This document shows, piece after piece, positions 1 through 64,000 of a DNA stretch of 64,000 nucleotides. Below the pieces are notes generated by a model. It was not told where the DNA came from. It searched no databases and saw nothing but the letters and a program-made list of their open reading frames with translations. Made by a program: the position numbers and the translations under genes. The stretch is from contig NC_081397.1 in the NCBI RefSeq assembly GCF_030684315.1, positions 1,054,001 to 1,118,000 on the forward strand, written 5' to 3'. Positions within the stretch are counted from its first letter, which is position 1, and each line of letters starts with the position of its first letter. The DNA comes from Stegostoma tigrinum. Its lineage: Eukaryota.

Positions 1-767
1 AGCACCTTCCCCTGCAGCCAGCGAAGGTGCAATACATGCCCATTTACCTCCTCGTTCCCCAGTATCCAAGAGCTTCAACATACCTTCTCGTTGAAGAATC
101 AATTCACCTGCTCTTCCCAAAATCTAATCTACTGCATTCGCTGCTCACAATGTAGTCTCCTCTACTTCAGGGAAACAAATCTTAGATTGGGTGAGCAATT
201 TGTGGAATCTCTGTGTTCTACTTGCAAAAATGATGCTGAGCTACCTGTTGCCTGCCACTTTAACACACCACCCTGTTCCCTGGTCAACATCTATATCTCT
301 CGCTTTCTGCAGTGTTCCAGGGAAGATCAATGCAAGCTGGAAGACCAACACCTCGTTTTCCATTTGGGCACCCAGAAGCTCGCCGGACTCAATATTGAGT
401 TCAATCATTTAAGGCCTAAACTCTACCATGTCTGAGCCCTCTATCCCACGCACTGGGCATGGTTTTCACGAAGCCTGCCATTATTCACCACCTGTTGTTA
501 GCCACTAATATTCCCTGTAACCAACTCTTCTCCTCCACAGCCTGATCATTATCAATTCTTTGTCTATCCAAGTGCTCTTCTCTCTCTTTAGGGTCTATTC
601 TAACATTTACTCCCTCCCCCTTCCCTTTTATCTGCAACTAAACTGACATTTCCGAGGCACCATCAGTTCTGAGGGAAGTTCACAGAACCCAAAATGTTAA
701 CTCTGTGTTTTTCCTTCACAGATTCTGCTCGACTTGCTGAGCTTTTCCAGCAACTTTGTTCTTGTTG
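1..767 (+). mobile_element. Penelope-like element 3' fragment (GIY-YIG endonuclease remnant plus decayed hammerhead tail), subfamily B
   Basis: ORF 91-435 NLIYCIRCSQCSLLYFRET..RL.E resembles the PLE GIY-YIG motif NVVYCIxCxxCxxLYIGET; decayed tail CAGTTCTGAGGGAAG...CCCAAAATGTTAACTCTG near 664-705. Confidence 0.8.
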
Positions 768-1091: not shown

Positions 1092-1125
1092 TTTCTGAAG
1101 AAGGTTCCTGACCCGAAACGTCAAA
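1092..1125 (+). ncRNA. Isolated PLE-type hammerhead ribozyme motif (stem II imperfect)
   Basis: TTT-CTGAAGA-A-GGTTCCTGACCC-GAAA-CGTC-AAA; TTT/AAA can form stem I. Confidence 0.55.
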
Positions 1126-3844: not shown

Positions 3845-5188
3845 AATCCGAGATAATTGGAACGGCAGATGCTGGAGAATCCAAGATAACAAAGCGTGAA
3901 GCTGGATGAACACAGCAGGCCAAGCAGCATCTCAGGACCACAAGAACTGACGTTTCGGGACTAGACCCTTCGTCAGAGAGGGGGATGGGGAGAGGGTTCT
4001 GAAATATATAGGGAGAGAGGGCGAGGCGGACCGAAGAAGGACAGAGGAGAAGATAGTTGGAGAGGACAGTATGGATGGGGAGGAAGGGAGGGGATAGGTC
4101 AGTCCGGGGAGGATGGACAAGTCAAGGAGGAGGGATGAGTTTGGTAGATCGGAAATGGAGGTGCATCTTGTGGTGGAAGGAGTGGATAGGTGAGAAGAAG
4201 AGCAGGTTAGGGAGGCATGGATGAGCTGGGCTGGTTTTGGGATGCAGTGGGGGGATGGGGGAGATTTTGAAGCTGGTGAAGTCCACATTGATACCATTGG
4301 GCTGCAGGGTTCCCAAGCGGAATATGAGTTGTTGTTCCTGCAATCTTTAGCAGGCATCATTGGGGCACTGCAGGAGGCCCAGGATGGACATGTCGTCTAA
4401 GGAATGGGAGGGGAGATAAAATGGTTCGTGACTGGGAGGTGCAGTTGTCCCTCACCCCCATCCCAGGCCCCAAGATGACTTTCCATATTAAGCAGATGCT
4501 CAGCTGCACATCTGCCAATGTAGTATACTGTATCCACTGTACCCGGCGATGCTTCTTCTACATTGGGAAAATGAAGCGGAGGCTTGAGGACGACTTTGCG
4601 GAACACCTCCGCTCGGTTCGCAACAATCAACTGCACCTCCCAGTCGTGAACAATTTTAACTCCCCGTCCCATTCCTGAGATGACATGTCCATCATGGGCC
4701 TCCTGCACTGCCACAATGACGCCACCCGAAGGATGCAGGAACAGCAACTCATATTCCGCTTAGGAACGCTGAAGCCCAATGTTATCAATGTGGACTTCAC
4801 AAAATGCAAAATCTTCCCTTCCCCCACTGCATCACAAAACCAGCCCAACTCGTCCCTGTCTCCCTAACCTGTTCTTCCTCTCACCTATCCCCTCCTCCCA
4901 CCTCAAGGCGCACCTCCATTTCCCACCTATTAACCTCATCCCGCCTCTTTGACCTGTCCGTCCTCCCCGGACTGACCTATCCTGTCCCCACCTCTCCACC
5001 TGTACTCTCCTCTCCACCTATCTTCTCCTCTGTCCATCTTCGGTCCGCCTCTCCCTCTCTCCCTATTTATTTCGGAACCCTCTCTCCACCCCACTCTGTA
5101 ATGAAGGGTCTGGGCCCGAAACGTCAGCTGTTGTGTTACTGAGATGCTGCTTGGCCTGCTGTGTTCATCCAGCTCCACACTTTGTTAA
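3845..5188. mobile_element. Head-to-head inverted PLE insertion (minus arm 3845-4447, plus arm 4448-5188)
   Basis: Both arms encode the GIY-YIG C-terminus (QEQQLIFRLGTLQPNGINVDF) and end outward in hammerhead-bearing tails; possible TSD CCTCC(A/T)AAGG at 3835-3844 and 5189-5198. Confidence 0.9.
3949..3976 (-). ncRNA. Minimal type I hammerhead ribozyme motif
   Basis: Minus strand reads CTGACGA-A-GGGTCTAGTCCC-GAAA-CGTC; core nucleotides retained. Confidence 0.7.
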
Positions 5189-7867: not shown

Positions 7868-9198
7868 ATGAGAAAACCAGCAATTTTGCTGTTGAAAGAG
7901 ATTTACTATCCACTTCTCGCAGCTGCTTGTCTTCCAGGTAAGCCATTCTCACTTGTTTGCTTTTAGTAGATTTTAGTTTCTCCTTGTTAATGCCACATAT
8001 CGTATATTTCCTCGTGTCAGTGTTGCCAGAACAATATCAAGAAATGTGTTTGGACACTGACTGCTTTTTGTTTCACTTTATCTGAAAACACAACTCCTGT
8101 AATGATAATACACTATACGTGTCATCTGCAATGAAAATTGATGATTTTTAGACAGGCTGGCTATACTATATGGAATGATGACTGATGCAACATATTAAAC
8201 TCTTGGGTAAATTTTCTATTTTTAAATCAATCACAATGTATTCAAATGCTCTAAATAATTACCTTCACCTTTATTTCAAACGTGCATTGCAATATTACTT
8301 AACTTCTTTGCCTCTCTTACAGCGAACATGATAACAGTTTTTATTCTCTTACGAAGAAATTGTGGCCTTTCCAAATGCATCTCAACTTACATGGTGGCCA
8401 TGGCAACAACGGATCTATTAGTCATTATCAATAGCATTATAGTATATCGTATTTTGAGTTATCACTTTCCATTTTCCTTCCTGTCCCACACACCAGTGTG
8501 TAAGCTCATTGTATATATGATTACTGTGAGTCTCGATTTAACCGTTTGGTTCACCGTTTCCTTTACATTTGACAGATTTGTGGTGATCTGCTGCCAGAGG
8601 TTTGAAGCAAAATATTGCACCAAAAGAACTGCAACCACGGTATTAACCGTCGTTAAAGAATGTACCGGTTTTGTTTGCATATGAGCCAGAGAAAATCATC
8701 AACAAAATCCAGTGGGGCTGCCGATCAAGTGCAAGTTTCTTAGCTTCATCTCCAGGGATAGCATTTGTCTGGTTTTACAGTGCCTGGGTTGCTTGGCTTC
8801 CATTTATTCTCATGTTCTTGTTTAATTCTTTAACCATTCACCGTATATTAGTTGCGAACAGGATTCACATTGGACTTAAGGGTCACAGAATTGAGAATCA
8901 TGGCAATTCAGAAATGGAAAACCGTAGGAAGTCCATCATTTTATTGTTCTCAGTATCAATTAGTTTCATACTACTTTGGTTAACACATTCTACGAGTTTG
9001 GCCATAACTAGGCTGTCAAAACCTAATTATTACCGAGGTGACTTGAACAATCCTGAATATATCGCAACTGAAACAGGACATATCCTCAAGTTGTTGAGTT
9101 GTTTCCTGAACCCATGTATTTGTGCAAAGACCCAGAACAAATTCAGAGCAGAGCTGAGCAAGGTGATGAAATCTCTATTAAACAAATTCTTTGATTAA
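7868..9198 (+). pseudogene. GPR139/GPR142-like class A GPCR, frameshifted (exon 1 7868-7937, exon 2 8323-9198)
   Basis: Exon 1 MRKPAILLLKEIYYPLLAAACLP ends at a GTAAG donor (7938); acceptor CTCTCTTACAG at 8322 splices in frame to ANMITVFILL...MATTDLL...WFTVSFTFDRFVVICC. Frame shifts at ~8650-8655 (TVLTVV to LKNVPVLFAYEP), then EMENRRKSIILLF and NPCICAKTQ to the stop at 9198. Confidence 0.88.
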
Positions 9199-12368: not shown

Positions 12369-13007
12369 AAAACGAGGTAGCAAAGTGAAAATCGTTACCT
12401 GACGTCATGCATGGTAATCCTACAGGCACTAACCAAAGGGTTGCAGAGAAATAGAAACCTGTCAAGAAATACGGTGTAACATTACGGGCTTTGCGAACAG
12501 GCTTTTTTACGGGTTGCAGGTGCAGGAATTTATTACCTTGAGGGTCTGTACCATCAACTTTTAGGAAGGTCTCCAGAGAGCAGTCTAATCAGGAAAATGG
12601 AAGATGGATCGTAAAAAGTGAAGGATGACATTGGGAAGAGTTCCCCTGACTAGACAACAATTAACACACAACAAATAGGAACAGAATTAGGAAATTTGTC
12701 CCATCCAGTCTGCTCCACCATTCAGTCATGGTTGATACGTTTCTTCACCCAATTCATCCACCTTCACCCAGGAAGGCCTGAAGCAATTTTGTGTGTGCAA
12801 ATTAAAAGAAGCTACCTTAACACTGCAGGGATTCTATGATCAAACACTGAGACAATTATTTCATCTTTATTGCACACAGCGAACAAAAAAGGACCCCTCC
12901 ACTCAGCAAGTTAAGCATGATCACACAACAAGGCTCTTAACAAGATAATGAAATGTGAGGCTGGATGAACACAGCAGGCCAAGCAGCATCTCAGGAGCAC
13001 AAAAGCT

Positions 13008-13035
13008 GACGTTTCGGGCCTAGACCCTTCATCAG
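13008..13035 (-). ncRNA. Minimal type I hammerhead ribozyme motif, intact core
   Basis: Minus strand reads CT-CTGATGA-A-GGGTCTAGGCCC-GAAA-CGTC-AG. Confidence 0.78.
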
Positions 13036-14611
13036 AGAGGGGGATGGGGAGAGGGAACTGGAAAAAATAGGGAGAGAGGGGGAGGCGGACCGAAGATGGA
13101 GAGTAAAGAAGATAGGTGGAGAGAGTGTCGGTGGGGTGGTAGGGAGGGGATAGATCAGTCCAGGGAAGACGGACAGGTCAAGGAGGTGGGATGAGGTTAG
13201 TAGGTAGCTGGGGGTGCGGCTTGGGGTGGGATGAAGGGATGGGTGAGAGGAAGAACCGGTTAGGGAGGCAGAGACAGGTTGGACTGGTTTTGGGATGCAG
13301 TGGGTGGGGGGGAAGAGCTGGGCTGGTTGTGTGGTGCAGTGGGGGGAGGGGACGAACTGGGCTGGTTTAGGGATGCAGTAGGAGAAGGGGAGATTTTGAA
13401 ACTGGTGAAGTCCACATTGATACCATATGGCTGCAGGGTTCCCAGGCGGAATATGAGTTGCTGTTCCTGCAACCTTCGGGTGGCATCATTGTGGCACTGC
13501 AGGAGGCCCATGATGGACATGTCATCTAGAGAATGGGAGGGGGAGTGGAAATGGTTTGCGACTGGGAGGTGTAGTTGTTTGTTGCGGACTGAGCGGAGGT
13601 GTTCTGCAAAGCGGTCCCCAAGCCTCCGCTTGGTTTCCCCAATGTAGAGGAAGCCACACTGGGTACAGTGGAAGCAGTATACCACATTGGCAGATGTGCA
13701 GGTGAACCTCTGCTTAATGTGGAATGTCATCTTGGGGCCTGGGATGGGGGTGAGGGAGGAGGTGTGGGGGCAAGTGTAGCATTTCCTGCAGTTGCAGGGG
13801 AAGGTGCCGGGTGTGGTGGGGTTGGAGGGCAGTGTGGAGCGAACAAGGGAGTCACGGAGAGAGTGGTCTCTCCGGAAAGCTGACAGGGGAGGGGATGAAA
13901 AAATGTCTTGGGTGGTGGGGTCGGATTGTAAATGGCGGAAGTGTCGGAGGATAATGCGTTGTATCCGGAGGTTGGTAGGGTGGTGTGTGAGAACGAGGGG
14001 GATCCTCTTGGGGCGGTTGTGGCGGGGGTGGGGTGTGAGGGATGTGTTGTGGGAAATACGGGAGACGCGGTCAAGGGCGTTCTCGATCACTGTGGGGGGA
14101 AAGTTGCGGTCCTTGAAGAACTTGGACATCTGGGATGTGCGGGAGTGGAATGTCTTATCGTGGGAGCAGATGCGGCGGAGGCGGAGGAATTGGGAATATT
14201 CCGCCTGGGAACCCTGCAGCCATATGGTATCAATGTGGACTTCACCAGTTTCAAAATCTCCCCTTCTCCTACTGCATCCCTAAACCAGCCCAGTTCGTCC
14301 CCTCCCCCCACTGCACCACACAACCAGCCCAGCTCTTCCCCCCCACCCACTGCATCCCAAAACCAGTCCAACCTGTCTCTGCCTCCCTAACCGGTTCTTC
14401 CTCTCACCCATCCCTTCCTCCCACCCCAAGCCGCACCCCCAGCTACCTACTAACCTCATCCCACCTCCTTGACCTATCCGTCTTCCCTGGACTGACCTAT
14501 CCCTTCCCTACCTCCCCACCTATACTCCCTCCACCTATCTTTTGTCTCCATCTTCGGTCCGCCTCCCCCTCTCTCCCTATTTATTCCAGTTCCCTCTCCC
14601 CATCCTCCTCT

Positions 14612-14639
14612 CTGATGAAGGGTCTAGGCCCGAAACGTC
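14612..14639 (+). ncRNA. Minimal type I hammerhead ribozyme motif, intact core
   Basis: CT-CTGATGA-A-GGGTCTAGGCCC-GAAA-CGTC-AG; predicted cleavage after GUC (14639). Confidence 0.78.
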
Positions 14640-15339
14640 AGCTTTTGTGCTCCTGAGATGCTGCATGGCCTGCTGTGTTCATCCAGCCTCACATTTTATT
14701 ATCTTGGAATTCTCCAGCATCTGTAGTTCCCATTATCTCTGATACTATTTTAAGGCTCTTAACAAATTGGTTCAAACAAATCGTGTTTGCTTCCGGATGT
14801 GCTCACTCTTAGATTCGTATACAGCATTTTTCCCTGAAACTCTGCAAATGAACAGTCCTGAAGTTTAATTCTTATATAAGTTTCTGTCCATAGAGTTCAT
14901 GGTGAGAAATTATTGAGAATTGTTTCGATACATGTGTCCACTTTATTGGTTATTGTTCTGGATCCATCAACCCTGGAACTTGTTTTTATATCAGAAGCAG
15001 CTCCCTGTTTTGTTTAACGTTCGGCATGAGGTGTCTGTTTGAAGTGTGGCTGTTGCTGCATTTTACCCATTTACCTCAGGACTTTACTTCGACAGACGTT
15101 CCTATTTAACTGTGTGTCACAAGGTGGCACGTTATCAAATGTTGTTATCTCCTCTGTCTCAGAAAACAGCATGCTTATGTTGCATCCTAGAAATAGCAAA
15201 TTATTTTCAGTTCCTGTATAACAGTTTGTCATTGTCTCTGAACAGTTTCAAAATAACTGTCCAGAGGTCAGGTCCCATCACCAAGTCTCACCTTATTCAC
15301 TACTGCACAGGACACTGGCCGTGGCAGCTGTCATAGAGC

Positions 15340-21989: not shown

Positions 21990-22372
21990 GTTTTTTGCTG
22001 GAACACCAGAGGCTGAGGGGTGAACTAATGCAAATTTATAAGATTATGAATGGCATGGATAGAGTGGAAAGTATGACTTTTTTTCCCACGGCAGGGGGGC
22101 GCAATTACTAGGGGACACAGTTTTAAGTTGGGAGGAGGGAGTTATTCACACCAAGGGTGGTGAGTGCCTGGAACGCACGGTCAGAGGAGCTGGTGGGAGT
22201 AGAGAAAATAGCAAAATTCAGGAAGCACCTGGTTGAATCCGTGAATAGGAAGGGAATTGAGGGATACCGACCCTGTAAGTGAAGACCATGTTAGTTTGGA
22301 AGGACATAATGTGACGGTGCGGATTTGGAGGGCCAGGTGGCCTGCTCCTGTGTTGTGTTGTTCTTTGTTCTT
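21990..22372 (+). mobile_element. CR1-like LINE 3' end (intronic)
   Basis: AGGCTGAGGGGTGAACTAAT...ACTAGGGGACACAG...GGGTGGTGAGTGCCTGGAAC; tail TGTTCTTTGTTCT. Confidence 0.75.
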
Positions 22373-22953
22373 ATTCACCGTCCTTTATTGGGCCAGAAAT
22401 TTTATTGAATTCAAATTTCACAAACCACAATTGTGAGATTAAAACCCATGTCCCCAGAAATCTGCCTGGGTTCTCAGGCTTGGTTTCTGGCACTAAAATG
22501 TGGCCGATTATGAAAGGTATCCTATACTGAGAGAGGGACAGTCCCAGGGGAGATCTGATGCTGATGAGGATGGACACATTTTTGGTGTATGTGAACTCCT
22601 GACAATGTCTTCTTCAACTGACCAATGTGTGACCAATACTGGCTGTCATTTCACGAGAGCTCTCATCCTGAGCGGAGCCACATTCTCACTTCTGTCTCAC
22701 TCAGCCATGAGTCTCACTTGATACACAATAATTAACATTGTGGGAAGATGAAAAGCCAGTGCAGGTTCTTCATCTGTGAAGCATCAGGCACGCACACTCA
22801 GTCGCATTTGACAATGTCTATTCTGGTCCTTCCTGCACAAACTCTCATGTTGGGACTTATGTAGAGAGGCTTGCAAAGTCGGAAACAATCTCTGTAAGGA
22901 TGGCCAGTGGGTCAAAGACTGAGAATTTTCCAAACGGCAGGTTGTTTAAAGCT

Positions 22954-23094
22954 NNNNNNNNNNNNNNNNNNNNNNNNNNNNNNNNNNNNNNNNNNNNNNN
23001 NNNNNNNNNNNNNNNNNNNNNNNNNNNNNNNNNNNNNNNNNNNNNNNNNNNNNNNNNNNNNNNNNNNNNNNNNNNNNNNNNNNNNNNNNNNNNN
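22954..23094. other. Assembly gap (141 N)
   Basis: Run of n. Confidence 1.
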
Positions 23095-24559
23095 GAAGGT
23101 CCATGTCAGATTATGATGAATTTTAGGAAGTGATTTTCATTCATTTTTCGTTCTGTCTTCTTCAGTGAATTTACTGGGGATTGTGATCATGTCCTACAGA
23201 AAGTGTGGCCTCTCCACCTGCACTACTCGCTACCTGGTGGCCATGGCAATGGCAGACCTACTTGTTGTTATCACTGAAGTCATCTTGATCCACGACAATC
23301 TTTATTATTTCCCAATTTCTTTCCTGGATATCACACCTATGTGTAATTTAACTGCTGTCCAGCTTTCTGCAGCTACAGATTGTTCTGTCTGGTTTACCGT
23401 CATGTTCTCCTTTGATCACTTTGTTGTCATTTGTTGCCAGCAGCTGAAAACAAGGTATTGCACTGTGAAAACAGCAATTGTGGTTCTAGCAACAATCTGC
23501 ATTCTTCTTTGTTTGAAAAAACATTCCTTTGTACTTTATATCTGATCCTTGGATAATAATCGACAATGTACCCTGGTTCTGTTCTACGAAGCCAAGCTAC
23601 TGTACTCATCCTGGTTGGGTGGGTTTTGACTGGTTTGATAAGATTCTAACTCCCTTTCTACACTTCAGTTTGGTTTTGTTGATTAATGCTGGGACAGTCA
23701 GACATATTTTAGTGGCCAGCAGAGCCCGTAAGGGACTGAAGGGTCAAAGCATCGTAGGGAATCGTAGTGACCCAGAGATAGAGAGCAGAAGGAAATCTAT
23801 GATTTTACATTTCACCATATTTGGCAGTTTCATCCTCCTTCGGTCTGTATATGTAATATATGCTACAACATAACGGGAAGAGATCCTGGGGATTACAAAG
23901 AGTCAAAAATTACTTTTCAACAAGTTGGTGTGATGCTGCAGAATTTAAGTTGCTGTACAAATACTTTTATTTATGCCGTGACGCAGACCAACTTCAGAGA
24001 ACAGCTTAAGAGGCGTTTTGAACCATCCTGTTACATCTATTGTTCAAATATTGAATAAACGTAAGAACCGAACCTCTCCTCACGGCATGTTAACCTATGA
24101 GCGACCTCGCTCAAGTGATTTGTTACCCACCTCCCCAAAATACCGATCTCCTCCTGCTGGCTGGCGGTTGTTCATCAAATCAGTTACACGAGTCAAGTCA
24201 CATGCTCTTGCTGTGCCTGGTGAAGAATAGATTCGATCAAACTGTAAGGATACACCGTCCAACAAATGGAAGTTGCCAAAATTGCGACCACATCTTCCCC
24301 ATTCTTTCCTTATGAGCGGCTTTGAACTGACAGTTGCCTCATTCAGTGAATGGATTGAAACAGCACGTCCTGGAATGAAGGCAACAATGTTCCAAACACC
24401 AATCGATGACTGAGCATTTCACGGGGCTCATCACAGTTTACTCCTGCACAATCTGTTACAGTCAATCCATTCAGCTCAACAGTGATCAGCCTTGTATTTC
24501 TTTGATAAATCCCATTGTTGCGATGCTAACTCAATACCCAGTTTCTTCTTCTTTGACTG

Positions 24560-30981: not shown

Positions 30982-31107
30982 CTGAGATAATGGGAACTGC
31001 AGATGCTGGAGAATCCGAGATAACGGAGCTGGATGAACACAGCAGGCCAAGCAACATCTCAGGAGCATAAAAGCTGATGTTTCAGGCCTGGACCCTTCAT
31101 CAGAAAA
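30982..31107 (-). mobile_element. Solo PLE tail starting at the hammerhead motif (core 31076-31103)
   Basis: Minus strand TTTT-CTGATGA-A-GGGTCCAGGCCT-GAAA-CATC-AGC followed by the standard tail; no upstream PLE sequence. Confidence 0.85.
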
Positions 31108-39712: not shown

Positions 39713-41045
39713 ATACACCTCCTCCCACCCACCCTCCTGCAAAAATTCCATCCCCTATTCCCAATTCCTCTGCCTCCGCCGCATCTGCTCCCACGATAAG
39801 ACATTCCACTCCCGCACATCCCAGATGTCCAAGTTCTTCAAGGACCGCAACTTTCCCCCAACAGTGCTCGAGAACGCCCTTGACCGCGTCTCCCGTATTT
39901 CCCGCAACACATCCCTCACACCCCGCCCCCGCCACAACCGCCCCAAGAGGATCCCCCTCGTTCTCACACACCACCCTACCAACCTCCGGATACAACGCAT
40001 TATCCTCCGACACTTCCGCCATTTACAATCCGACCCCACCACCCAAGTCATTTTTCCATCCCCTCCCCTGTCAGCTTTCCGGAGAGACCACTCTCTCCGT
40101 GACTCCCTTGTTTGCTCCACACTGCCCTCCAACCCCACTACACCCGGCACCTAACCCTGCAACCGCAGGAAATGCTACACTTGTCCCCACACCTCCTCCC
40201 TCAACCCCATCCCAGGCCCCAAGATGACATTCCACATTAAGCAGAGGTTCACCTGCACATCTGCCAATGTGGTATACTGCATCCACTGTACCCGGTGCGG
40301 CTTCCTCTACATTGGGGAAACCAAGCGGAGGCTTGGGGACCGCTTTGCAGAACACCTCCGCTCAGTCCGCAACAAACAACTGCACCTCCCAGTCGCAAAC
40401 CATTTCCACTCCCCCTCCCATTCTCTAGATGACATGTCCATCATGGGCCTCCTGCAGTGCCACAATGATGCCACCCGAAGGTTGCAGGAACAGCAACTCA
40501 TATTCCGCCTGGGAACCCTGCAGCCATATGGTATCAATGTGGACTTCACCAGTTTCAAAATCTCCCCTTCTCCTACTGCATCCCTAAACCAGCCCAGTTC
40601 GTCCCCTCCCCCCACTGCACCACACAACCAGCCCAGCTCTTCCCCCCCACCCACTGCATCCCAAAACCAGTCCAACCTGTCTCTGCCTCCCTAACCGGTT
40701 CTTCCTCTCACCCATCCCTTCCTCCCACCCCATGCCGCACCCCCAGCTACCTACTAACCTCATCCCACCTCCTTGACCTGTCCGTCTTCCCTGGACTGAC
40801 CTATCCCCTCCCTACCTCCCCACCTACACTCTCTCCACCTATCTTCTTTACTCTCCATCTTCGGTCCGCCTCCCCCTCTCTCCCTATTTTTTCCAGTTCC
40901 CTCCCCCCATCCCCCTCTCTGATGAAGGGTCTAGGCCCGAAACTTCAGCTTTTGTGCTCCTGAGATGCTGCTTGGCCTGCTGTGTTCATCCAGCCTCACA
41001 TTTTATTATCTTGGAATTCTCCAGCATCTGCAGTTCCCATTATCT
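39713..41045 (+). mobile_element. Young 5'-truncated PLE copy, near-identical to the 12944-14198 arm
   Basis: ORFs 39825-40154 and 40224-40694 nearly match ORF 13260-14129; in-frame TAA at 40152-40154; hammerhead at 40919-40946 with a GAAACTTC variant. Confidence 0.95.
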
Positions 41046-45342: not shown

Positions 45343-45658
45343 ATACCTCTCATCCCCACCTCCTTGACCTGACACATCCTGTCCATCTGCTGTCCCAGCT
45401 ATCCTACCTTCCCAACTCACTGACCAATCCTCAGCAGCCCCGACCTGCACTCAGTGATCACCTTCCCAAAGACCATCCCCAGCACCACCTCTCCTCTCTC
45501 TATTATTTCTGAGCACACTTCTCCATCCCACATATCTGAAGAAGGGTCCTGACCCAAAATGTCAACTTTCCTGCCCCTCCTATGCTGCCTGGCCTGCTGT
45601 GTTCCTCCAGATCCAAACTGTGTTATCTCTGACTCCAACATTGGCAGTTTTTACTATC
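45343..45658 (+). mobile_element. PLE 3' fragment with CpG-decayed hammerhead (45536-45563)
   Basis: CTGAAGAAGGGTCCTGACCCAAAATGTC followed by the tail. Confidence 0.8.
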
Positions 45659-46410: not shown

Positions 46411-46590
46411 CTCAGAGATAGTAAGAACTGGAGCCAGAGAGAACACAGTGTGGAGCTGGAGGAACACCGCAGGCCAGGAAGCATCAGAGGAGCAGGTAAG
46501 TTGACATTTTGGGTCAGGTCTCTTCTTCAGAAATGGAAAGAGGGAAGGGACCTCAAAAATAGAGAGAGGGGGATGGTTTTAGGAAGGTAG
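46411..46590 (-). mobile_element. PLE 3' fragment with decayed hammerhead (46503-46530)
   Basis: Minus strand CTGAAGAAGAGACCTGACCCAAAATGTC followed by the tail. Confidence 0.8.
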
Positions 46591-48620: not shown

Positions 48621-49817
48621 CCAAACAGTGTCAAATACTTGTAATACTCGATCGAAGCTGTTGGTGTTTCTCCAAATTACCAGTTACTCGCCAACAACAG
48701 ATTCCAGAAGTTGTTGAGCCTCAGGCTCCTTCACCCACTGGAACTCTCACTGCTCACCTTCCTCTCACAATATTCCTCTCTCTTCACCTTTTCCGTCTCC
48801 CTCTTTAAGTAGAGGAGGAAAGGACAGGGGGAGGACAGGGAAATGAAAGCACTGCAGTGATGTGATCTTTGGTGCGGCTAATCCTTACCATCAAGTACAC
48901 CCACCAGACCCTTCACACTCACTCTGACAAAATGTACATCAGAATGCCGTGTCTCAGCGCTCTCTGGTTGGACAATTAACCTTTGACTGATTCAGTTTAG
49001 ATTTTTTTTTAATATCCGACATTGTCATGTTGACATTGCTGCTGTGGGCCGCTTTCAATTTCATATTTATTTGAAGTTGCCTTTTACTGCAAATCAGTAT
49101 GGTGCATTGTGAACTTATGTCCTCCCTGTTAAAAGAAAATAAATCTGCTGTGTAGCTGAATTGACATCACATCCGCAATATATTTGCTGTCTCCAGAAAC
49201 CGGGAATTCAAAAAATGCATGAGAAATCAAAAAGGCGAGTTCTATCAACAATGGGATTTCCTCGTTGTAAAAAAAGATTTCCTTGTAGTTCTGATTCGAA
49301 CACAGAAGGATCATCAACAATGTACAATTCGATGCCAGAAATCAACCAAACTACATTCCAGACTCAGGGTAGATTGGATTTTTAACCCGTTGCTGCCTTT
49401 ATATTTCATTCTGTCCCCGACAAACTAACAATGGCACACATTTTATCTTCCCATCGAGTCGATAATGCACTGTAGGCTCTGAGTCAGATCGATAATCACA
49501 CTCACCAGTTAAAGTGGTAAATTCACACTTCTTTCTGGTGCGTATATCCTAATTGTACTTCAAAGTGTTGCTCATGATATCTTCCAAAAAGGTACATTGG
49601 ATGCTGTGGGAATTTAGGTTGCTGCAAAAAAATCTATACACTGACTGAACATGGGAGCAATTCAAGCATGTGGTGAAATATCTAGATTTATTAATGATTT
49701 AATTTAGTAAGTATAATTTCTACATTATATAATTGGTAAAGCCCACAATTAAGAGGGGAAGTGCTCGCTGAGAGACCAGACAAATCAATTCTGGGAGAAC
49801 AAAACTGTAAAAGGTGG

Positions 49818-50025
49818 ACAAAAACAGAAGTTGCGGGAAAACCCAGCAGGTCTGGACCATCTGTGAAGAAATAGAGAAATCAGAGTTAACATTTTGGGCG
49901 AACGTTTGGTGAAGGGTCACCGAATCCGAAACATGAACTCTGATTTTTTTTTTCTTCACAGAGACTTTCCAGCAAATTCTGCTTTTGTCCCTGATTTATA
50001 GTATCCGCAGTTCTTTGGGTTTTTA
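49818..50025. mobile_element. Miniature head-to-head PLE tail pair joined at the hammerhead region
   Basis: Minus arm ends CAGAGTTAACATTTTGGG; plus arm begins TGGTGAAGGGTCACCGAATCCGAAACATGAACTCTG. Confidence 0.75.
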
Positions 50026-51199
50026 TTTGCACAGATCATTATTCTATGCGTTAGTTTTCTGTTGGAAGTATAAGGGGAACGCAAAAGAATATGAGCTAAT
50101 AGCCTTTTTGGTGCAGCATCAACAATTAACTGAGGTTTGAGAAGTGTTAGCAAGGACATCAATCTCTGGGTTCTGTCTGTGTATGCCTGCATTTGGAGAC
50201 TGATACAGACTGATCATCGAGTCCATTAAACCAATTAGAAATTCATCTCACCTGGGCAAGGTCAGTCATCATTTAATGCTTCAATTGATTAGACTATAGG
50301 TGTGAGGCTTTGAAGAATTATTGAGCAGTTTTCAGTGATTCAAATGCCAATGTGAAAGTTTGAAGTTATGCAGCTTGCAAACAGGAGTGGCCTAACCTGG
50401 AGGCTTTGGAAAGAGACTGACAATTTGAGTGTTGGTCTGCATCCTGAGCTGAAGCAGAAAACAAAAGCTTAGTATGTCTACGAGGTTGCTACATGACTTC
50501 AATAACAATAATAATGAATTAAAGTTTCTTCAGTTATTGCAATAGGCTGTTTTCTGTCACCTTGTTGGTTTGTCTCAAATGAACAAACCAATTTCAGAAC
50601 TTGTGTGTAAGATCCCCTGAAACTTCCACTTGCTGCATCTCTGCCCTTCCCCAGCTCTAATTCCTTCATCTTACTGTGACTCGCACTGGCCTCAGAAACC
50701 TCCCTATCTCTGCCTCTTTCTACAGCACTTTGCAGTTTCCACAATCATCTCCAAGCTCACGATCTTCCCTCGATCAGCACCCTTCCTCAATATTTTCTGC
50801 ACGGTCAAATTAATGGTCTTTTAGTCAATCGAAAAATCAGAGTAGGCTCTTTGTTCAGTAGATTTCAGCTGCTGTAAAAAATCACTCGAAGGATACTTTG
50901 TAAGATCACTTTGGTGACTCGCTGCACATAACTTCAAGATCAATATCTACATGTAGACACTGCATCATTTTATCCAAGTGCTCCATTAGGTCTATCAGCT
51001 GTAATGATTCTTTGGTATGTTGTACTGTACAAGGTAGATTTAAATATTCTAGTCCAACCTTTGCTATTTTCACAATTGAACCCTTGACACTTCTTATGAA
51101 TCCCTTTCGGACTGTGTAAATGTTCTGGTGCGACATTGAGCAGAGTAATACAGCTGTTTGCTCAGGGACTAAGCAATGTCAGTCCCCAAGGATTCCACT

Positions 51200-52639: not shown

Positions 52640-53122
52640 TGGTTGATGCTTTGAGAGGATAGCGATAAAGGTTTAGCAGGACATTGCTTGGTATGGCTGG
52701 ATTTTACCTCTGATTAAGAGACTAATTGGAATAGATTAGCTTTGTTTTCAATGAAGCAGGAGTTGAGATTCATAAGATTGGAAATCTCATGGATGGAGTG
52801 GAAAATGTTAGGCTTTTCCAAAGGTGGGGAGGGGGGCTCCATTACGAGAGGGCACACATTCAAGGCGCGAGGGGCAATTTTAAAAGAGATGTGCGAGGTA
52901 AGTTTTTCGCACAAAGGGTGGAGAGTACCTGGAACACACTGCCAGAGGAGGTGGAGGAAGCTGGCACAATAGCAGCATTTGAAAATCACCTGGAAGAATA
53001 CATGAATGGGAAGAACATGGGGGAATACAAATCCTGTAAGTGAAGGCACCCTTCGCTGGGAAGGGCAAAATGTGAAGGTACAGGCCTGGATGTTCTGCTC
53101 CTGTGCTGGATTGTTCTTTGTT
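52640..53122 (+). mobile_element. CR1-like LINE 3' end (intronic)
   Basis: ITRGHTFKARG; DVRGKFFAQRVESTWNTLPEEV; tail TGTTCTTTGTTCT ~60 nt before the acceptor. Confidence 0.8.
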
Positions 53123-53182
53123 CTTTAAGTTTTTCTCATTTCCTAAACAAAATATGTGCATGTTTGTTACTCTTACTTCCAG

Positions 53183-54075
53183 TGAACTTTGTGACAATTC
53201 TGATTCTGTCCCGTGGGAAGTGTGATCTGTCCAAATGTGTCACTCTCTACCTGGTGGCTATGGCAGTTGCGGACCTACTGGTTATTATCTTCGATCTCAT
53301 CTTCAGACACATTCCAATTGTTTACCGTGATGAGTTCCATTTCTTGTTTTCTATCCCCATGTGCAATATCCACGCTGTCGTGCTTTATGCAGCCACTGAC
53401 TGTTCTGTTTGGTTCACCGTCAGTTTCACCTTCGATCGCCTTATTGCCATTTGCTGTCAGAAGCTGAAAAGCAAATACTGCACTGAACGAACAGCCGCTA
53501 TGGCTCTGGGAACGGTGACTGCTTTGAGCTGCATGAAGAACATTTCCTGGTATTTCATGCTAATGGGTAACTATTATCAGATCAACTTACCCTGGTTTTG
53601 TCTCTTAAGGAAAAATGTTTTAAAGTCTGTGCTCTGGGTGACGATTGAATTTTTACATCATATATTAACACCGTGCTGCCCTTTCATCTTGATTTTGTTG
53701 TTCAATGCAATAACTGTGAAAAATATTTTATTGACAAGCAGAGCCCGTAGAAGACTGCATGCTTCTCGTAGTGGCAGAGATCCAGAGATGGAGAATCGGA
53801 GGAAATCCATCAATTTACTCTTCATTCTCTCAGCTAATTTCATTATCTTATGGTCAACCTTAATGGTGTTTTCTATTTGGTATCGGATGTTTTCTTTGGG
53901 GTATTATTCTGTATCATTGCTTCCTTTTGTGCTTGAGTTGGGATTCATGCTTCAGCTCCGGAGTTGCTGTACGAACACTGGTATTTATGCTGTAACTCAG
54001 ACAAAATTCAGAAAGAATTTGGTGAATGTCGTAAAATTCCCCTTTACTGCAATCATTAAATCAATTGTGAGATAA
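53183..54075 (+). CDS. Probable G-protein coupled receptor 139-like, exon 2 (spliced product 385 aa, open frame)
   Basis: Acceptor CTTACTTCCAG at 53182; LNFVTILILSRGKCDLSKCVTLYLVAMAVADLL, DCSVWFTVSFTFDRLIAICC, DPEMENRRKSI, SCCTNTGIYAVTQTKFR; hydrophobic segments consistent with 7TM; no internal stops. Confidence 0.92.
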
Positions 54076-54549: not shown

Positions 54550-55055
54550 TAATTCCAGCGTCAGGTGACTGCGAGTGTGGAAATTGCATGTTCATCTGTC
54601 TCCACATGGACACTTCGGTTTCTTCTTGGAGTCCAAGGATGTGCGGGTTAGGGTGGATTGGCCATGCTACATTGTCCTGTTGTGCCCAGGGATATGCAGG
54701 TTAGGGTGGGATTGGCCATGATACATTGTCCTGTAGTGCCCAGGGATGTGCGGGTTAGGGTGGATTGTCCATGCTAAATTGTCCCGTAGTGCCCAGGATG
54801 TGCTGGTTAGGTTGGATTGGCCATGCTAAATTCCCCCGTTGCGCCCAGGGATATGCAGGTTAGGGTGGATTGGCCGTACTAAATTGTCCCATAATACCCA
54901 GGGATGTGCGGATTACTGGGTGATTAACCATAGAAAATGCATGGTTAGGGGTATAGGGTTTGGTCGGTGGGTTGTTCTGGGTAGGATGATCATTTGCGGG
55001 CCTGTACAGTCTTGGCAAGCCAAATGGCCTTTGTCTTCATCTTTGGCATTCTATG
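54550..55055 (+). mobile_element. HE1-like SINE with an expanded internal ~53-bp tandem array
   Basis: Units GGATGTGCGGGTTAGGGTGGATTGGCCATGCTAAATTGTCC..TAGTGCCCAG start at ~54637, 54690, 54744, 54796, 54849 and (partial) 54902. Confidence 0.85.
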
Positions 55056-56729: not shown

Positions 56730-57515
56730 TGGTGCAAATCAGAAACAAAGCCAGAAGTTGCTGGAAAATCTCAACAGGTCTGGCAGGATCTGTGGCTGGT
56801 GATAGTGGTTGGGAAAACATCAGTTTTATATGCAGAAAATAGGGAGGGGTTGGTGTCGGGAGTAAATGATAGGATAGAGCCTAAAGAGAGAGAAAGACGG
56901 TTGTGCAGACTAAGGAGTCGAAAAAGATCAGGCGGGGAGGGTGAGTAGCTGTTAATGGGGACTGTTCGTGACTAACAACAGGTCGTGTAACGGCAGGCTC
57001 TGAATAGCAAGGCCTGGTGTGTGGGGTTGGGGACTGGGACATGGGAGGGTTTAGACCCTAAAAGTATTGAACTCAATATTGAGCCCGGAGGGCTACAGGG
57101 TCCCCAAAAACGGAAAATGAGGAATTGTTCTTCCAGCTTGCATTGAACTTTGCTGGAACACCGCAGCAAGCCAGAGACAAAGATGTTGGTCTGGGAAGAG
57201 GGTGGTGTGTTAAGCTGGCAGGCAACAGGTAATTCAGGGACTTACTTACAATCAGAACATAGATGTTCTGCGAAGCCGTCACCCATTATCACATAACCTG
57301 CTATTACACTGCATGTTATTGGTCACTAATAATGGCATTTCGCTCTCCCATCGATTTTCAATAGCCTTCTCCCTATTTTCTGCATACAAACTGATATTTT
57401 CCCAGCCACCATAACTTCTGAGGACGGGTCACCACACTAGAAATGTTAACGCTGTTTTTAATTCACCAATGTTGCCAGATCTGCTGAACTTTTCCAGCAA
57501 CTTTGTTTTTGCTCC
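56730..57515. mobile_element. Head-to-head inverted PLE subfamily-B insertion (minus arm to ~57285, plus arm from ~57286)
   Basis: Minus ORF LRCSSKVQCKLEEQFLIF; both outer ends carry TTTTCCAGCAACTT-type tails; decayed hammerhead at ~57418-57450. Confidence 0.75.
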
Positions 57516-59110: not shown

Positions 59111-60490
59111 ACCTCCTCTCACCCACCTTCCTGCAAGAATGCTACTCCCCATTCCCAATTGTTCACCTCCTCTCACCCACCTTCCTGTGAGAATGTTATC
59201 CCATTTTCCCAAATCCTTTGCCTCCACCACCTCTGCTCCCAAGATGAGGCATTCCATCCCAGAAAACCGAGATGTCCTCATTTCCCAAGGGCCACTCCTC
59301 CCCATCCCCACAGTTTTCAAAAATACCCTCAACCACATCTCTAGCGTTTCCTGCACCTCATCCCTCACACCCACTCCCTGCAATATCAGCAAAGTCAGAA
59401 TTGCCTGAGTCCTGACGTATCACCCTATCAACCTCTGGATTCAATGCTTCATTCCCTGCCACTTCTGCCACCTGCAATCTGACCCCACTACCAAGGATAT
59501 ATTTCCTCTCGACCCTTATCTGCCTTCTAGACCAAGCACTCTCTACACGACTCCTTCATCCGCTCCACAGTCCCCACTAGCCCCACTCCCCCGGCACCTT
59601 TCCCTGAAAACATAGGAGGTGTGGCATCTGCCCGTACACCTGCACCCTCACCTCCATCCCAGGCCCAAAGAAAACCTTCCGCATGAAGCAGATGTTCACC
59701 TTCACATCGGCTGCTGTGGCTGATTGTGCCCGTTGCTCCCAATGTGGCATCCTCTACATCAGGGAAATCAAGCGAGGCTTGGAAACCGATTTGTGGAGCA
59801 TCTAGCTCTGTTTGTGACAAATGACAATAGCTCCCATTCACGAACCAGTTCAAACTTCCCTCCCACTCCTTGGACGACATGTCCATCCTGGGCCTCCTCC
59901 AGAGTCATGATGATGCCACATGAAAACTGGAGGCAAAACAAGTTGTGTTCCATCTGGGAACCCTACATCTCAATGGTCTCAATATGGACTTTACAAGGTT
60001 CAAAATCTCCCCAACCAACACCCCGCCCAACTCACCCCAAGACTAGCACCACCTCTCGACCCCGCCTCCTTGACATGTCTGTCATCCCTCCCACCTACCC
60101 GCTCCTTCCACCTCACTGACCAATGCCCAACCCAACTCCCTAACTGCACGCACTTTTACTGGCTCCATCCCTGTCTCCTTGACCTGTCCGTCTTCCCGCC
60201 CACCTACCCGCTCCTTCCACCTCACTGACCAATGCCCAACGCAACCTCCTTCCTGCACGCACTTTTACTGGCTCCATCCCCCCCTCCTTGACCTGTTCGT
60301 TTTCTCTCCACCTATCTGCTCTAGTATCCACCTTCTATCATCGGCTCCCCCCGCCCTTCTATTTATTTCAGAGCCCCATTCCCCTCCCCCATTTCTGAAG
60401 AAAGGTCCAGACCCAAAGCATCAGCTTTCCTATGCTTCTGATGCTGCCTGGCCTGCTGTGTTCATCCATTTCCAGACCAATTTATTCTCT
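59111..60490 (+). mobile_element. Degraded 5'-truncated PLE with internal tandem duplications
   Basis: Homologous to 39713-41045; ~54-bp duplication at the 5' end and 109-bp-period duplication at 60068-60292; decayed hammerhead at ~60395-60422. Confidence 0.88.
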
Positions 60491-61190: not shown

Positions 61191-64000
61191 ATAGAACATA
61201 GAACATAGAACATTACAGCACAGTACAGGCCCTTCAGCCCTCGATGTTGTGCCGACCTGTCATACCGATCTCACGCCCATCTAACCTACACTATTCCATG
61301 TACGTCCATATGCTTGTTCAATGACGACTTAAATGTACCTAAAGTTGGCGAATTTACTCCCGTTGCAGGCAAAGCGTTCCATTCCCTTACTACTCTCAGA
61401 GTAAAGAAACTACCTCTGACATCTGTCCTGTATCTTTCACCCCTCAATTTAAAGCGATGTCGCCTCGTGCTCGCCGTCACCATCCAAAGAAAAAGGCTCT
61501 CCCTATGCAGCTTATCTAACCCTCTGATTATTTTATATGTTTCAATTAAGTCACCTCTCAACCTTCTTCTCTCTCATGAAAACAGCCTCAAGTCCCTCAG
61601 CCTTTCCTCGTAAGACCTTCCCTCCATTCCAGGCATCCTTCTTCTGATGCAGTGACCAGAACTTTACACAACACTCCAAGTGCGGCCGCACCAGAGTTTT
61701 GTACAGCTTCACCATAACCTCTTGGTTCCAGAACTCGATCCTTCTATTAATAAAAGCTAACACATTGTATGCCTTCTTAACAGCCCTGTCACCCTGGGTG
61801 GCAACTTTCAAGGATCTGTGTACATGGGCACCGAGATCTCTCTGCTCATCTACACTACTAAGGATCTTACCATTAGCCCTGTACTTTGCCTTCTGGTTAC
61901 GCCTACCAAAGTACATCACCTCACACTTGTCTGCATTAAACTCCATTTGCCACCTCTCAGCCCAGCTCTGCAGCTTATCTCTGTCGCTCTGCAACCTATA
62001 GCATCCTTCGTCACTATCCAGAGCTCGACTGACCTTAGTGTTGTCTGAAAATTTACTAACCCATCCTTCTACGCCCTCATCCAGGTCATTTGTAAAAATG
62101 ACAAACAGCAGTGGACCCAACACCGACCCTTGCGGTACACCACCAGTAACTGGTCTCCAGGATGAATATTTCCCATCAACTACCACCCTCTGTCTTCTTT
62201 CAGCAAGCCAATTTCCGATCCAAACTGCTATATCTCCCACAATTCCATTCCTGCACATTTTGTACAATAGCCTATTGTGGGGAACCTTATCGAATGCCTT
62301 GCTGAAATCCATGTACACCACATCAACCGGTTTACTCTCATCTAGCTGTTTGGTCACCTTCTCAAAAAACTCAATAAGGTTTGTGAGGCACAACCTTCTC
62401 TTCACAAAACCGTGCTGACTATCCCTGGTCAATTTATTCTTTTCTAGATAATTATAAATCCTATCCCTTATAACCTTTTCCAACACTTTCCCAACAACTG
62501 AGGTAAGGCTCATTATGTCTATAACTACCAGGGCTGTCTCTACTCCCCTTCGTCAACACGGGAACCACATTTGCTATCCTCCAGTCATCTGGCACTATTC
62601 CTGTAGGCAAAGACGAGTCAAAGAGCAATGCCAAAGGCTCGGCAATCTCCTCCCTGGCTTCCCAGAGGATCCGAGGATAAATCTCTTCTGGCCCAGGGGA
62701 CTTATCTATCTTCACCCTCTGTAGGATTTCTAATACCTCTTCCTTGTGAACCTCAATCCCACCTAGTCTAGTAGCCTGTACCTCAGTATTCTCCTCGACA
62801 ACATTGTCATTTTCTAAAGTGAATACTGTTGAAAAATATTCATTTTGCACTTCCCCTATCTCATCTGACTCCACGCACAACTTACCACTACTATCCTTGA
62901 TTGGGCCTAATCTTAATTTCGTCATTCTTTTATTCCTTAAATACCTATAGAAAGCCTTGGGGTTTACCCTGATCCTATCCACGAACAACTTCTCATGTCT
63001 CCTCCTGGCTCTTCTGAGCTCTCTCTTTAGGTCTTTCCTGGCTACCTCGTAGCCCTCAAGTGCCCTAAATGAGCCTTCACATCTCATCCTAACATAAGCC
63101 TTCTTCTTCCTCTTGACCAGAGATTCCACCTCCTTCATAAACCACTGCACCTGCACACTACAGCTTCCTCCCTGCCTGACAGGTACATACTTATCAAGTA
63201 CACACAGGAGGTTTTCCTTTAATTATCTCCATATTTCTAATGTGCCCATCCCCTGCAGTTTCCTTCCCCATCCCATGCTCCCTAAATCTTGCCTAATCTC
63301 ATTGTAATTGCTTTTCCCCCAGCTAAAACTCTTGCCCAGTCGTATGCACATATCCCTTTCCATCACTAAAGTCAACATAACAGAATTGTGATCGCTATCA
63401 CCAAAGTGCTCACCTACTTCAAAATCTAACACCTGGCCAGGCTCATTACCCAGTACCAAATCTAACGTGGCTTCGTCCCTTGTTGGCCTATCTACATACT
63501 GTGTCAGGAATCCCTCCTGCACATGTTGCACAAAAACTGACCCATCCATAGTACTCCAACTATAGTGTTCCAAGTCAAAATTTGGAAAGTTGAAGTCCCC
63601 CACGACAACTACCTTGTCTCTCTTACTCCCATCGAGAATCATCTTTGCTATCCTTTCCTCTACAAATCTGGAACTATTGGGAGGCCTACAGAAAACTCCC
63701 AACAGGGTGACCTCTCCTTTCATGTTTCTAACCTCAGCCCACACTATCTCAGCTGACGAGTCCCCAAACATCCTTTCTGCAACTGTGATACTGTCCTTGA
63801 CCGACAATGCCACACCTCTGCCCCTTTTACCATCTTCTCTGTTCTCACTGAAACATCTAAATCCCGGAACCTGCAACAACCATTCCTGTCCCTGCTCTAT
63901 CCGTGTCTCCGAAATGGCCACAACATCGAAGTCCCAGGTGCTAACTCATGCTGCAAGTTCACCCACCTTATTCCGGATGCTCTTGGCATTGAAGTAGACA
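61191..64000 (-). mobile_element. CR1-clade LINE ORF2 (APE endonuclease plus RT) and 3' tail, disrupted; runs off the window
   Basis: AISET, GVFCRPP, VVGDFNFP, LDLVL, GDSDH (endonuclease); SQHGF, YMDFSKAFDKV, GVPQGSVLGPLLF, FSDNTK (degenerate FADD); (TTCTATG)n tail at 61191-61212; stops and frameshifts split the ORF. Confidence 0.95.

What the first reader, a model, noticed from the sequence alone, without database searches (positions are those of the whole stretch)
12944..14751. Minimal hammerhead ribozymes in the PLE 3' ends, more than a dozen copies in 64 kb
Seen: ~65-110 nt from the PLE 3' ends is CTGATGA-A-GGGTCTAGGCCC-GAAA-CGTC-AG. The core is intact at 13008-13035(-), 14612-14639(+) and 3949-3976(-); variants lie at 1095, 5098, 31076, 40919, 45536, 46503, 49907 and 60395, among others. 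Established: this is the type I hammerhead core (CUGANGA, stem II, GAAA, UH cleavage site), and PLEs are known to carry such minimal hammerheads. Here stem III is reduced to the loopless palindrome ACGU. Inference: a monomer cannot fold, so cleavage would need two copies pairing as a dimer. Subfamily B uses a different stem I (AGTT/AACT) around the same core, consistent with structural selection. The phenomenon is known in general; this family and its density may be undescribed.
Basis: partly seen in the sequence, partly recalled or inferred. Interest (0 to 1): 0.8.

Follow-up and report, generated by a model that had tools for sequence, protein, structure and literature searches.

The report
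Penelope-element minimal hammerheads in a shark
The motif is the already described minimal self-cutting "hammerhead" RNA carried by Penelope-like jumping genes, here in mostly dead copies scattered through a shark genome, and the only new hint is that the copies begin just in front of the ribozyme rather than at its cut site.

Summary
Confirmed. Three intact minimal type I hammerhead cores and about 20 homologous loci lie in the window; the genome, a shark's, holds 111,803 intact cores. They sit in the pseudo-LTR of a 3.64-kb Neptune/Nematis-type Penelope-like element. This is the min-HHR class of Cervera and De la Peña 2014, and this scan has noted it before in other sharks and rays. Positions 12944-14751 are one dead insertion with a 14-bp target-site duplication; its two cores face away from each other on opposite strands and cannot pair in one transcript. 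Across three subfamilies the core is fixed while N7, H17 and one helix I pair change; helix I is 4 bp in the old and 2 bp in the young ones. So inserted DNA was copied from uncut RNA that probably starts at helix I. Cleavage itself is untested. New member of a known kind.

The parts
12944..14751 (.). One inverted, doubly 5'-truncated insertion of a Penelope-like element (subfamily A)
   Evidence: Flanked by a 14-bp direct repeat; short arm plus tailed arm
12930..12943 (+). Left copy of the target-site duplication (up to 3 nt shared with the element end)
14752..14765 (+). Right copy of the target-site duplication
12944..14198 (-). Left arm: end of RT thumb, CX4CxxC linker, GIY-YIG endonuclease, 3' UTR, hammerhead, ends at core +91..94 (no tail)
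   Evidence: the sister copy 40155-40691 hits GIY-YIG PF01541 at E 3e-4, below the curated cut-off
14196..14751 (+). Right arm: ORF end, 3' UTR, hammerhead, 5' UTR with tail, ends at core +139
   Evidence: 14 mismatches in 511 aligned nt to the left arm
13008..13035 (-). Intact minimal hammerhead core, left arm
14612..14639 (+). Intact minimal hammerhead core, right arm: CUGAUGA, unpaired A9.1, 4-bp helix II with CUAG loop, GAAA, palindromic ACGU, C17; predicted cut between 14639 and 14640
14608..14611 (+). Position -4..-1 before the core: 5' strand of helix I (only 14610-14611 pair with 14640-14641) and the family-wide modal 5' end of short copies; inferred RNA start
   Evidence: the RNA start is inference
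14656..14722 (+). Conserved predicted stem 14656-14663/14715-14722 enclosing a hairpin 14672-14675/14684-14687; brackets the two reverse-transcription start zones (about 14703 and 14736-14751)
   Evidence: 78% and 81% of cells paired in 36 copies, few two-sided changes; RNAalifold did not recover it; role inferred by analogy with PMC11167929
3949..3976 (-). Third intact core (N7=C, helix II 3 bp); head-to-head with the mutated copy at 5098
5098..5125 (+). Subfamily A core, C3 and G5 mutated
1095..1122 (+). Subfamily C core with intact core letters, broken helix II, no tail behind it
31076..31103 (-). Short subfamily A copy starting 5 nt before the core; stem III CpG decayed
40919..40946 (+). 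Subfamily A core, G16.2 mutated, end of a 1.3-kb truncated copy
45536..45563 (+). Subfamily C core, G12 and C15.2 decayed
46503..46530 (-). Subfamily C core, decayed
60395..60422 (+). Subfamily C core, decayed
669..698 (+). Subfamily B core (AGUU/AACU helix I), decayed
49906..49935 (+). Subfamily B core, decayed, in a short head-to-head pair with 49805-49898(-)
57418..57447 (+). Subfamily B core, decayed

Best explanation
The motif is the minimal type I hammerhead (min-HHR) of the pseudo-LTR of a Neptune/Nematis-type Penelope-like retrotransposon, amplified passively with the element; the window's copies are dead insertion products. Shown: a 3.64-kb unit with RT and GIY-YIG, one hammerhead per unit about 150 nt before the start codon; copies end at two fixed sites behind the ribozyme; inverted copies are single events with one arm from each site; 5' ends pile up about 4 nt before the core. 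Inferred: the endonuclease makes a staggered 11-16-nt cut, each DNA end primes reverse transcription at one of two internal sites on uncut RNA, both cDNAs run through the ribozyme, and many run off an RNA 5' end (probably a capped start) at the first base of helix I before they are joined head to head. Inferred from the literature and not tested here: the ribozyme cuts rarely, only as a double hammerhead and probably with help of the element's protein, and its products are not the main template for insertion.
For: Full-length unit and tandem junction; RVT_1 and GIY-YIG hits, both below Pfam's cut-offs, 289 long homologues, most with RT domains; 111,803 intact cores, reversed control 0; core fixed while N7 and H17 vary among three subfamilies; sense-strand min-HHRs with other helix I, II and stem III letters in 26 of 80 related loci from metagenomes, against 1 hit in 10 shuffles; 38 of 40 inverted pairs short+long, 32 of 40 with a direct repeat of 7 nt or more against 21 of 500 controls; 5' ends 32 of 100 at -8..+3 and 0 of 100 at +26..+33 in 360 kb taken at arbitrary places; head-to-head junctions at the core start 6,242 (A) and 1,046 (B); cores lacking a tail 5 of 214; agrees with PMC11167929 (two internal RT starts, both strands extended, uncut RNA the main substrate, protein-assisted cleavage) and PMC4209133.
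Against: No RNA evidence: the start site and any cleavage are inferred. About 700 junctions in subfamily A are fused exactly at the AGCT behind the cleavage site (39 of 50 listed of 894), far above a downstream palindrome (5 of 50 listed of 139) and the adjacent ACGT (2 of 50), which could be run-off from cut RNA. Core conservation between subfamilies is only modestly beyond the tail's own 71% identity (P about 0.013), and pair covariation in 36 copies is weak (32 of 500 shuffles reach the paired fraction). Nearest-neighbour energies disfavour the double hammerhead of the young subfamilies by 15-17 kcal/mol against two folded monomers.
Confidence: 0.8

Rival explanations
1. Cleavage defines the transposition template (first reader; model of Cervera and De la Peña): two hammerheads of a tandem pair up, cut out a unit-length RNA that is circularised and then reverse-transcribed through the junction.
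For: A religated circle would also give copies that read through the ribozyme; about 700 junctions fused at the AGCT behind the cut site; tandem junctions exist; low dimer activity published for other min-HHRs.
Against: A circle has no 5' end, yet a third of arms stop at -8..+3. 0 of 100 arms start and at most 2 of 214 cores end at the cut site. In subfamily B, predicted the better ribozyme, fusion at the cut site (5 of 50 listed, background included) is no more frequent than at the neighbouring stem III palindrome (6 of 50). The AGCT fusion is equally produced by cDNAs stalling at the foot of the 6-bp hairpin that the A monomer forms.
Confidence: 0.15
2. In the young subfamilies the hammerhead is no longer a working ribozyme: it folds into an inactive hairpin and its letters are kept for another job (promoter element, protein-binding site, translation control) or simply have not had time to drift.
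For: Helix I shrank from 4 bp (B) to U-A plus C-G or U.G (A, C); the 41-nt A monomer folds core on core at -11.4 kcal/mol, 81% of the ensemble; 8 of 9 Xenopus dimers did not cleave (bioRxiv 2026.07.22.740005); PLE clades without hammerheads proliferate well (PMC8557442).
Against: All 13 constrained core positions are kept between A and B while the two free ones changed; the second helix I pair moved through C-G, U.G, U-A; 2-bp helices I are published for Drosophila, Culex and Oikopleura min-HHRs, though with G-C pairs.
Confidence: 0.3
3. Sub-question, the 5' pile-up: it is not a transcription start but a reverse-transcriptase stall or an exonuclease block fixed by the ribozyme structure or a protein bound to it.
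For: Ends are spread over -8..+15 rather than one base; half of the arms run well past the site; the G before the first templated base is often ambiguous because the opposite arm also supplies a G.
Against: The mode stays at -4 (A) and -4/-3 (B) although the upstream sequences differ (C-rich against mixed); an extra non-templated C on the cDNA strand at this point appears in 5 of 5 shown contig joints that leave at -4 or -2 (3 distinct junctions), the signature ascribed to capped RNA for LINE-1 (PMC4859970); the three subfamilies read like initiator motifs there (TCT-type in A, Inr-type in B and C; consensus recalled, no call).
Confidence: 0.35
4. The focal pair is a host-used device, or the motif is a chance match.
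For: Both cores of the insertion are intact.
Against: 55 of 98 subfamily A copies are intact simply because they are young, and intactness falls to 6 of 31 and 1 of 34 in older subfamilies, with CpG-type decay at the core's own CpGs; 90,316 identical 30-mers exist; chance is excluded by shuffles.
Confidence: 0.02

Closest known systems
min-HHRs in the pLTRs of metazoan Penelope-like elements (Cervera and De la Peña 2014, PMC4209133; dimer cleavage also Lunse, Weinberg and Breaker, RNA Biol 14:1499, seen only as cited in PMC6765202)
   Same: CUGANGA, an unpaired base at 9.1, G10.1-C11.1, GAAA, palindromic 15.2-16.2 without loop 3 (C G U C/U is the commonest form in their alignment), short helix I, one per pLTR, mostly single motifs in truncated copies.
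   Different: No shark in their main text or in the supplement file that could be searched; 111,803 intact cores against about 4,000 (coelacanth) and 9,000 (Xenopus); helix II only 4-5 bp; helix I of the young subfamilies weaker (C-G or U.G plus U-A) than the rows of their alignment that I saw.
PAc (Poseidon) of Anolis carolinensis, Frangieh et al. 2024, PMC11167929
   Same: Hammerhead at the pLTR-ORF junction; two internal RT start sites that delimit the tail; both target strands cut and extended; uncut RNA as the main substrate; no reads ending at the cleavage site.
   Different: Here the linker has CX4CxxC (Neptune/Nematis type, absent from Poseidon); the ORF starts about 150 nt behind the core, not inside it; in vitro they saw no strand preference for the two starts, whereas here 38 of 40 insertions use one start on each side.
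Drosophila virilis Penelope (PMC2377424, PMC4209133)
   Same: Internal promoter in the pLTR, tail, 2-bp helix I, inverted 5' copies.
   Different: There the start lies 46 nt plus a 75-nt intron before helix I; here copy ends point to an RNA 5' end at helix I itself, and no recurrent upstream exon is seen at junctions.
Non-LTR retrozymes of animals (PMC7229834 listing; bioRxiv 2026.07.22.740005)
   Same: Type I hammerheads derived from PLE pLTRs, also reported in one chondrichthyan.
   Different: Retrozymes are head-to-tail tandem arrays; no tandem array in the window contains the motif, and the short copies here are head-to-head pairs with target-site duplications.

Membership tests
PLE minimal hammerhead (min-HHR) | Core CUGANGA ... 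GAAA ... UH | tested here: met
   3 window copies, 111,803 genome-wide
PLE minimal hammerhead (min-HHR) | Unpaired base at 9.1 and G10.1-C11.1 closing helix II | tested here: met
   A9.1 in 98 of 98, 30 of 31, 32 of 34; G-C majority in all three subfamilies
PLE minimal hammerhead (min-HHR) | Palindromic 15.2-16.2, no helix III loop | tested here: met
   ACGU in all three majority sequences, CpG-decayed in old copies
PLE minimal hammerhead (min-HHR) | Helix I of usually 3-5 bp | tested here: inconclusive
   4 bp in B, 2 bp in A and C; 2-bp cases are in print
PLE minimal hammerhead (min-HHR) | Sense orientation in the pLTR of a PLE | tested here: met
PLE minimal hammerhead (min-HHR) | Self-cleavage as dimer, none as monomer | not testable with these tools
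   Energies only
Canonical type I hammerhead (Rfam models) | 6-bp helix I, helix III with loop, tertiary contacts; Rfam score | tested here: not met
   No Rfam match
EN+ Penelope-like element | One ORF with RT and C-terminal GIY-YIG | tested here: met
   L077, one frameshift near the RT end; RVT_1 E 2e-5, GIY-YIG E 0.019 and 3e-4, all under curated cut-offs; homologues to 57%
EN+ Penelope-like element | Partial tandems (pLTR), inverted 5'-truncated copies, 30-40-nt tail on one end | tested here: met
Neptune or Nematis clade | CX2-5CxxC linker before the endonuclease | tested here: met
   CNRRKCYTC in window ORF 40155-40694; definition from PMC8557442
Neptune or Nematis clade | Placement in an RT tree with named references | not tested
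   No named PLE references were on hand; Neptune and Nematis not told apart
Non-LTR retrozyme | Head-to-tail tandem array of units that each hold a hammerhead | tested here: not met
   None of 23 tandem-repeat rows covers a core; tested in the window only

The most novel reading that the evidence does not exclude
The element's RNA is capped at the first base of helix I, so the hammerhead is the very 5' end of the message. Cleavage, needing two RNAs held by a protein dimer, would then remove a 32-nt capped piece and act as a decapping switch between translation and another fate, rather than release the element from a longer transcript; and each insertion would be made by two priming events, one per target strand, at the two internal starts of one RNA, leaving thousands of palindromic 'strong-stop' mini-elements.
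Probability: 0.3. Interest if true: 0.55.

Novelty: new member of a known kind. Interest (0 to 1): 0.27.

Why it matters
The class is known and the scan has met it repeatedly, so the catch itself changes little; the copy number (over 100,000 intact cores) is roughly ten times the highest count in the 2014 survey. What could matter is the record left by the copies: the function of Penelope hammerheads is still called unclear (PMC8557442), and this family offers a large natural data set which says that insertion uses uncut RNA, that the RNA probably begins at the ribozyme, and that the two RT starts are used one per strand. That gives exact positions for a 5'-end test.

Tried and rejected
Rfam scans found no hammerhead. 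RNAalifold on 36 copies gave a near-zero-energy structure that matches neither hammerhead nor tail stems; decayed copies are poor input. No RNA holder listed for a pLTR-ORF junction. Two runs of unrecorded kind were laid as contigs; their depth follows genomic copy number and they cannot show RNA ends. A reading of AGCTTTT before the core as a joined cleavage product was dropped: it is a head-to-head junction of a variant with CTTTT upstream. A class of elements ending at the cleavage site was looked for and not found (5 of 214 cores lack a tail, 2 of them stop near the site). Whether the two arms come from two RNA molecules stayed open: arms differ at 26 of 193 diagnostic cells, against 38% for random pairs and 68 of 2,058 at other sites. 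The 5' edge of pLTRs in distant relatives could not be read, too few loci have two copies. A downstream promoter element at +28 of the inferred start was considered and rejected: the letters do not fit the recalled RGWYV and the spacing differs by 2 nt between A and B. A first family B junction pattern was too strict (9 matches). In-register filters first mis-set the B helix II length and were corrected. NCBIfam gave nothing. Lunse et al. could not be read. The unbiased sample stayed at 360 kb.

Full report
Observation. The core is at 14612-14639(+) and 13008-13035(-). A strict minimal-hammerhead descriptor finds these two and 3949-3976(-), against a mean of 0.04 in 100 shuffles. Rfam has no match. 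In the own genome (3.2 Gb) the exact 30-mer occurs 90,316 times and a pattern for all three subfamilies 111,803 times, reversed controls 0. The window is thus average. A rhodopsin-family receptor gene of the window has only chondrichthyan proteins among its named top hits, so the host is a shark.

The element. A search with the window's RT fragment led to a near full-length copy, L077: remnant of a 5' pseudo-LTR, an ORF with RT and, after one frameshift, GIY-YIG, and a 3' hammerhead; unit length 3,644 nt. Pfam hits are weak (RVT_1 E 2e-5, GIY-YIG E 0.019 and 3e-4), but 289 long homologues reach 57% identity. The CX4CxxC linker places it with Neptune or Nematis by the definition in PMC8557442 (passages); no tree was built. 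In 30 loci chosen on the ORF-proximal sequence, the stretch behind the hammerhead runs on into the start codon, about 150 nt after the core. The apparent 3' end of a copy is therefore the 5' UTR of the next tandem unit.

The focal locus. 12944-14751 is flanked by a 14-bp direct repeat. Its left arm (minus strand) ends at core +91..94, its right arm (plus) at about +139; they differ at 14 of 511 aligned bases. The cores point away from each other, so a transcript in either direction holds one core in sense and the complement of the other, and the 510-nt inverted repeat would pair. This copy is an insertion relic and not a dimer. The pattern is general: of 40 head-to-head pairs, 38 join one short arm and one tailed arm (P 7e-10) and 32 have a direct repeat of 7-16 nt, against 21 of 500 mismatched flanks. 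The one-sided tail is known (PMC8557442), and Frangieh et al. (PMC11167929, parts 1-2 of 4 read; supplement text gave no hits, figures not visible) showed for an Anolis element two internal RT starts, extension of both strands, uncut RNA as main substrate and cleavage only with protein.

Structure across subfamilies. 184 arms were clustered on the tail alone; 98 of 100 A, 31 of 39 C and 34 of 45 B arms were in register and counted, the rest had indels or junctions in the core. Majority cores: N7 is U, A, G; H17 is C, C, U; all other core letters are the same. With 40 of 56 tail positions identical between A and B, 13 of 13 fixed core positions has P about 0.013. Helix II keeps GGG/CCC, switches U.G and U-A at pair 4, and has a fifth pair in B. 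Helix I keeps U-A, goes C-G, U.G, U-A at pair 2, and has pairs 3-4 only in B. On 36 copies the named structure is paired in 78% of cells (slid controls 23-40%), but shuffles reach that in 32 of 500 and the covariation score in 7 of 500, so covariation is present but thin. Intact cores fall from 55 of 98 (A) to 6 of 31 (C) and 1 of 34 (B), mainly by CpG decay: copies decay neutrally. The A monomer folds its core into an inactive hairpin (-11.4 kcal/mol); the double hammerhead scores -5.5 (A), -1.9 (C), -17.3 (B) against -22.8, -16.4, -22.6 for two monomers (no tertiary terms). In 80 related loci from metagenomes, 26 carry a sense min-HHR (29 plus, 2 minus hits; 1 hit in 10 shuffles) with helices I of 3-6 bp and several palindromes in stem III.

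Where copies begin. In 360 kb taken at arbitrary places, 100 arms were chosen on the tail only. Their 5' ends relative to the core start: 21 beyond -200, 19 at -200..-9, 32 at -8..+3, 13 at +4..+15, 7 at +16..+25, 0 at +26..+33 (the cut site), 8 at +34..+45 (BLAST ends, approximate in old copies). Genome-wide, head-to-head junctions at the core start number 6,242 in A, commonest form both arms at -4 (7 of 50 listed), and 1,046 in B, commonest -4/-3 (8 of 50), though the upstream sequences differ. Against this reading: 894 junctions lie around the cut site in A, 39 of 50 listed fused exactly at AGCT, against 2 of 50 at the adjacent ACGT and 139 at a downstream control; 2,244 more lie between, mostly at microhomologies. 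This could be run-off from cut RNA, but a stall at the foot of the A hairpin gives the same product, and B shows no such excess (5 of 50 at the cut site, 6 of 50 at stem III, 310 matches against 97 control). Only 5 of 214 cores lack a tail. For a capped start: among 49 arms with foreign upstream DNA, 20 stop at -4/-5 and 15 of these have G next, but many are ambiguous; in contigs of two runs, all 5 shown joints that leave at -4 or -2 carry one extra C on the cDNA strand (3 distinct junctions; 5 of 12 rows shown, 388 not shown). Untemplated G is read as a cap mark for LINE-1 (PMC4859970, passages). The likeness to TCT and Inr initiators rests on recalled consensus. Drosophila Penelope has an internal pLTR promoter (PMC2377424, passages).

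What is known. Cervera and De la Peña (PMC4209133; parts 1-2 of 4 and part 2 of supplement file 2 read, file 1 not searchable) define this motif, argue the dimer and report low dimer activity; fish, lamprey, coelacanth, Xenopus and reptiles are listed, sharks not in what I saw. Lunse et al. was not available and is known to me from a review passage (PMC6765202). A 2026 preprint (parts 1-3 of 5) finds hammerhead tandems and PLEs in one chondrichthyan and cleavage in 1 of 9 dimers. Searches for a shark-specific description or for a start site at the hammerhead (listings only) found none; subscription journals, Repbase and Dfam are not covered, so this is weak. Earlier notes of this scan report the same motif in other sharks and rays.

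Verdict. Real, correctly named, and a new member of a known kind. Cleavage is untested and doubtful for the young subfamilies without help. The end statistics favour insertion from uncut RNA (about 80%) that starts at helix I (about 55-60%). Interest 0.27.

Noticed in passing
G000-wide; examples L004, L009, L013, L017, L030; window 49805-50027: Thousands of about 225-bp palindromic mini-elements made only of two pseudo-LTR arms (about 95 and 130 nt) joined at the hammerhead start, with 9-16-bp target-site duplications; they look like MITEs but are retrotransposition products.
   Followed up: yes
L136, about 2395-2470: Two to three telomere-type TAACCC units sit at the inversion junction between two arms of one insertion.
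   Followed up: no
window 8647-9198, 22140-23814, 52901-54075: Cluster of rhodopsin-family receptor genes and fragments ('probable GPR139' in shark annotations); the surrounding contig is segmentally duplicated (identical RT relics at three places).
   Followed up: partly
window 1095-1124: A lone hammerhead fragment from about -4 to +29, which is the extent of the predicted capped 5' cleavage product; the only such case among 214 cores, so possibly a deletion.
   Followed up: partly
window 14656-14722: Conserved stem and inner hairpin in the 5' UTR that bracket the two RT start zones, with an A-U/U-A swap in some subfamily C copies; candidate protein-binding site.
   Followed up: partly
window 14575-14589 and 640-660: A pyrimidine tract ending in CAG lies 23 nt (A) or about 12 nt (B) before the core, like a 3' splice site; Drosophila Penelope has an intron ending at helix I. 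No junction pile-up there.
   Followed up: partly
L168, L204, L214, L218, L226: Related elements from marine metagenomes carry the U3-A8 core variant, published for Schistosoma and Saccoglossus.
   Followed up: no
window 61551-63945 (-) and 54633-54915: A broken LINE with AP endonuclease and RT, and a 53-bp tandem repeat of 5.3 copies.
   Followed up: no
L028, L098, L111, L075: Template jumps in which a cDNA that reached the core start continues in, or is joined to, ORF sequence; the same hot spot acts in direct as well as inverted junctions.
   Followed up: partly
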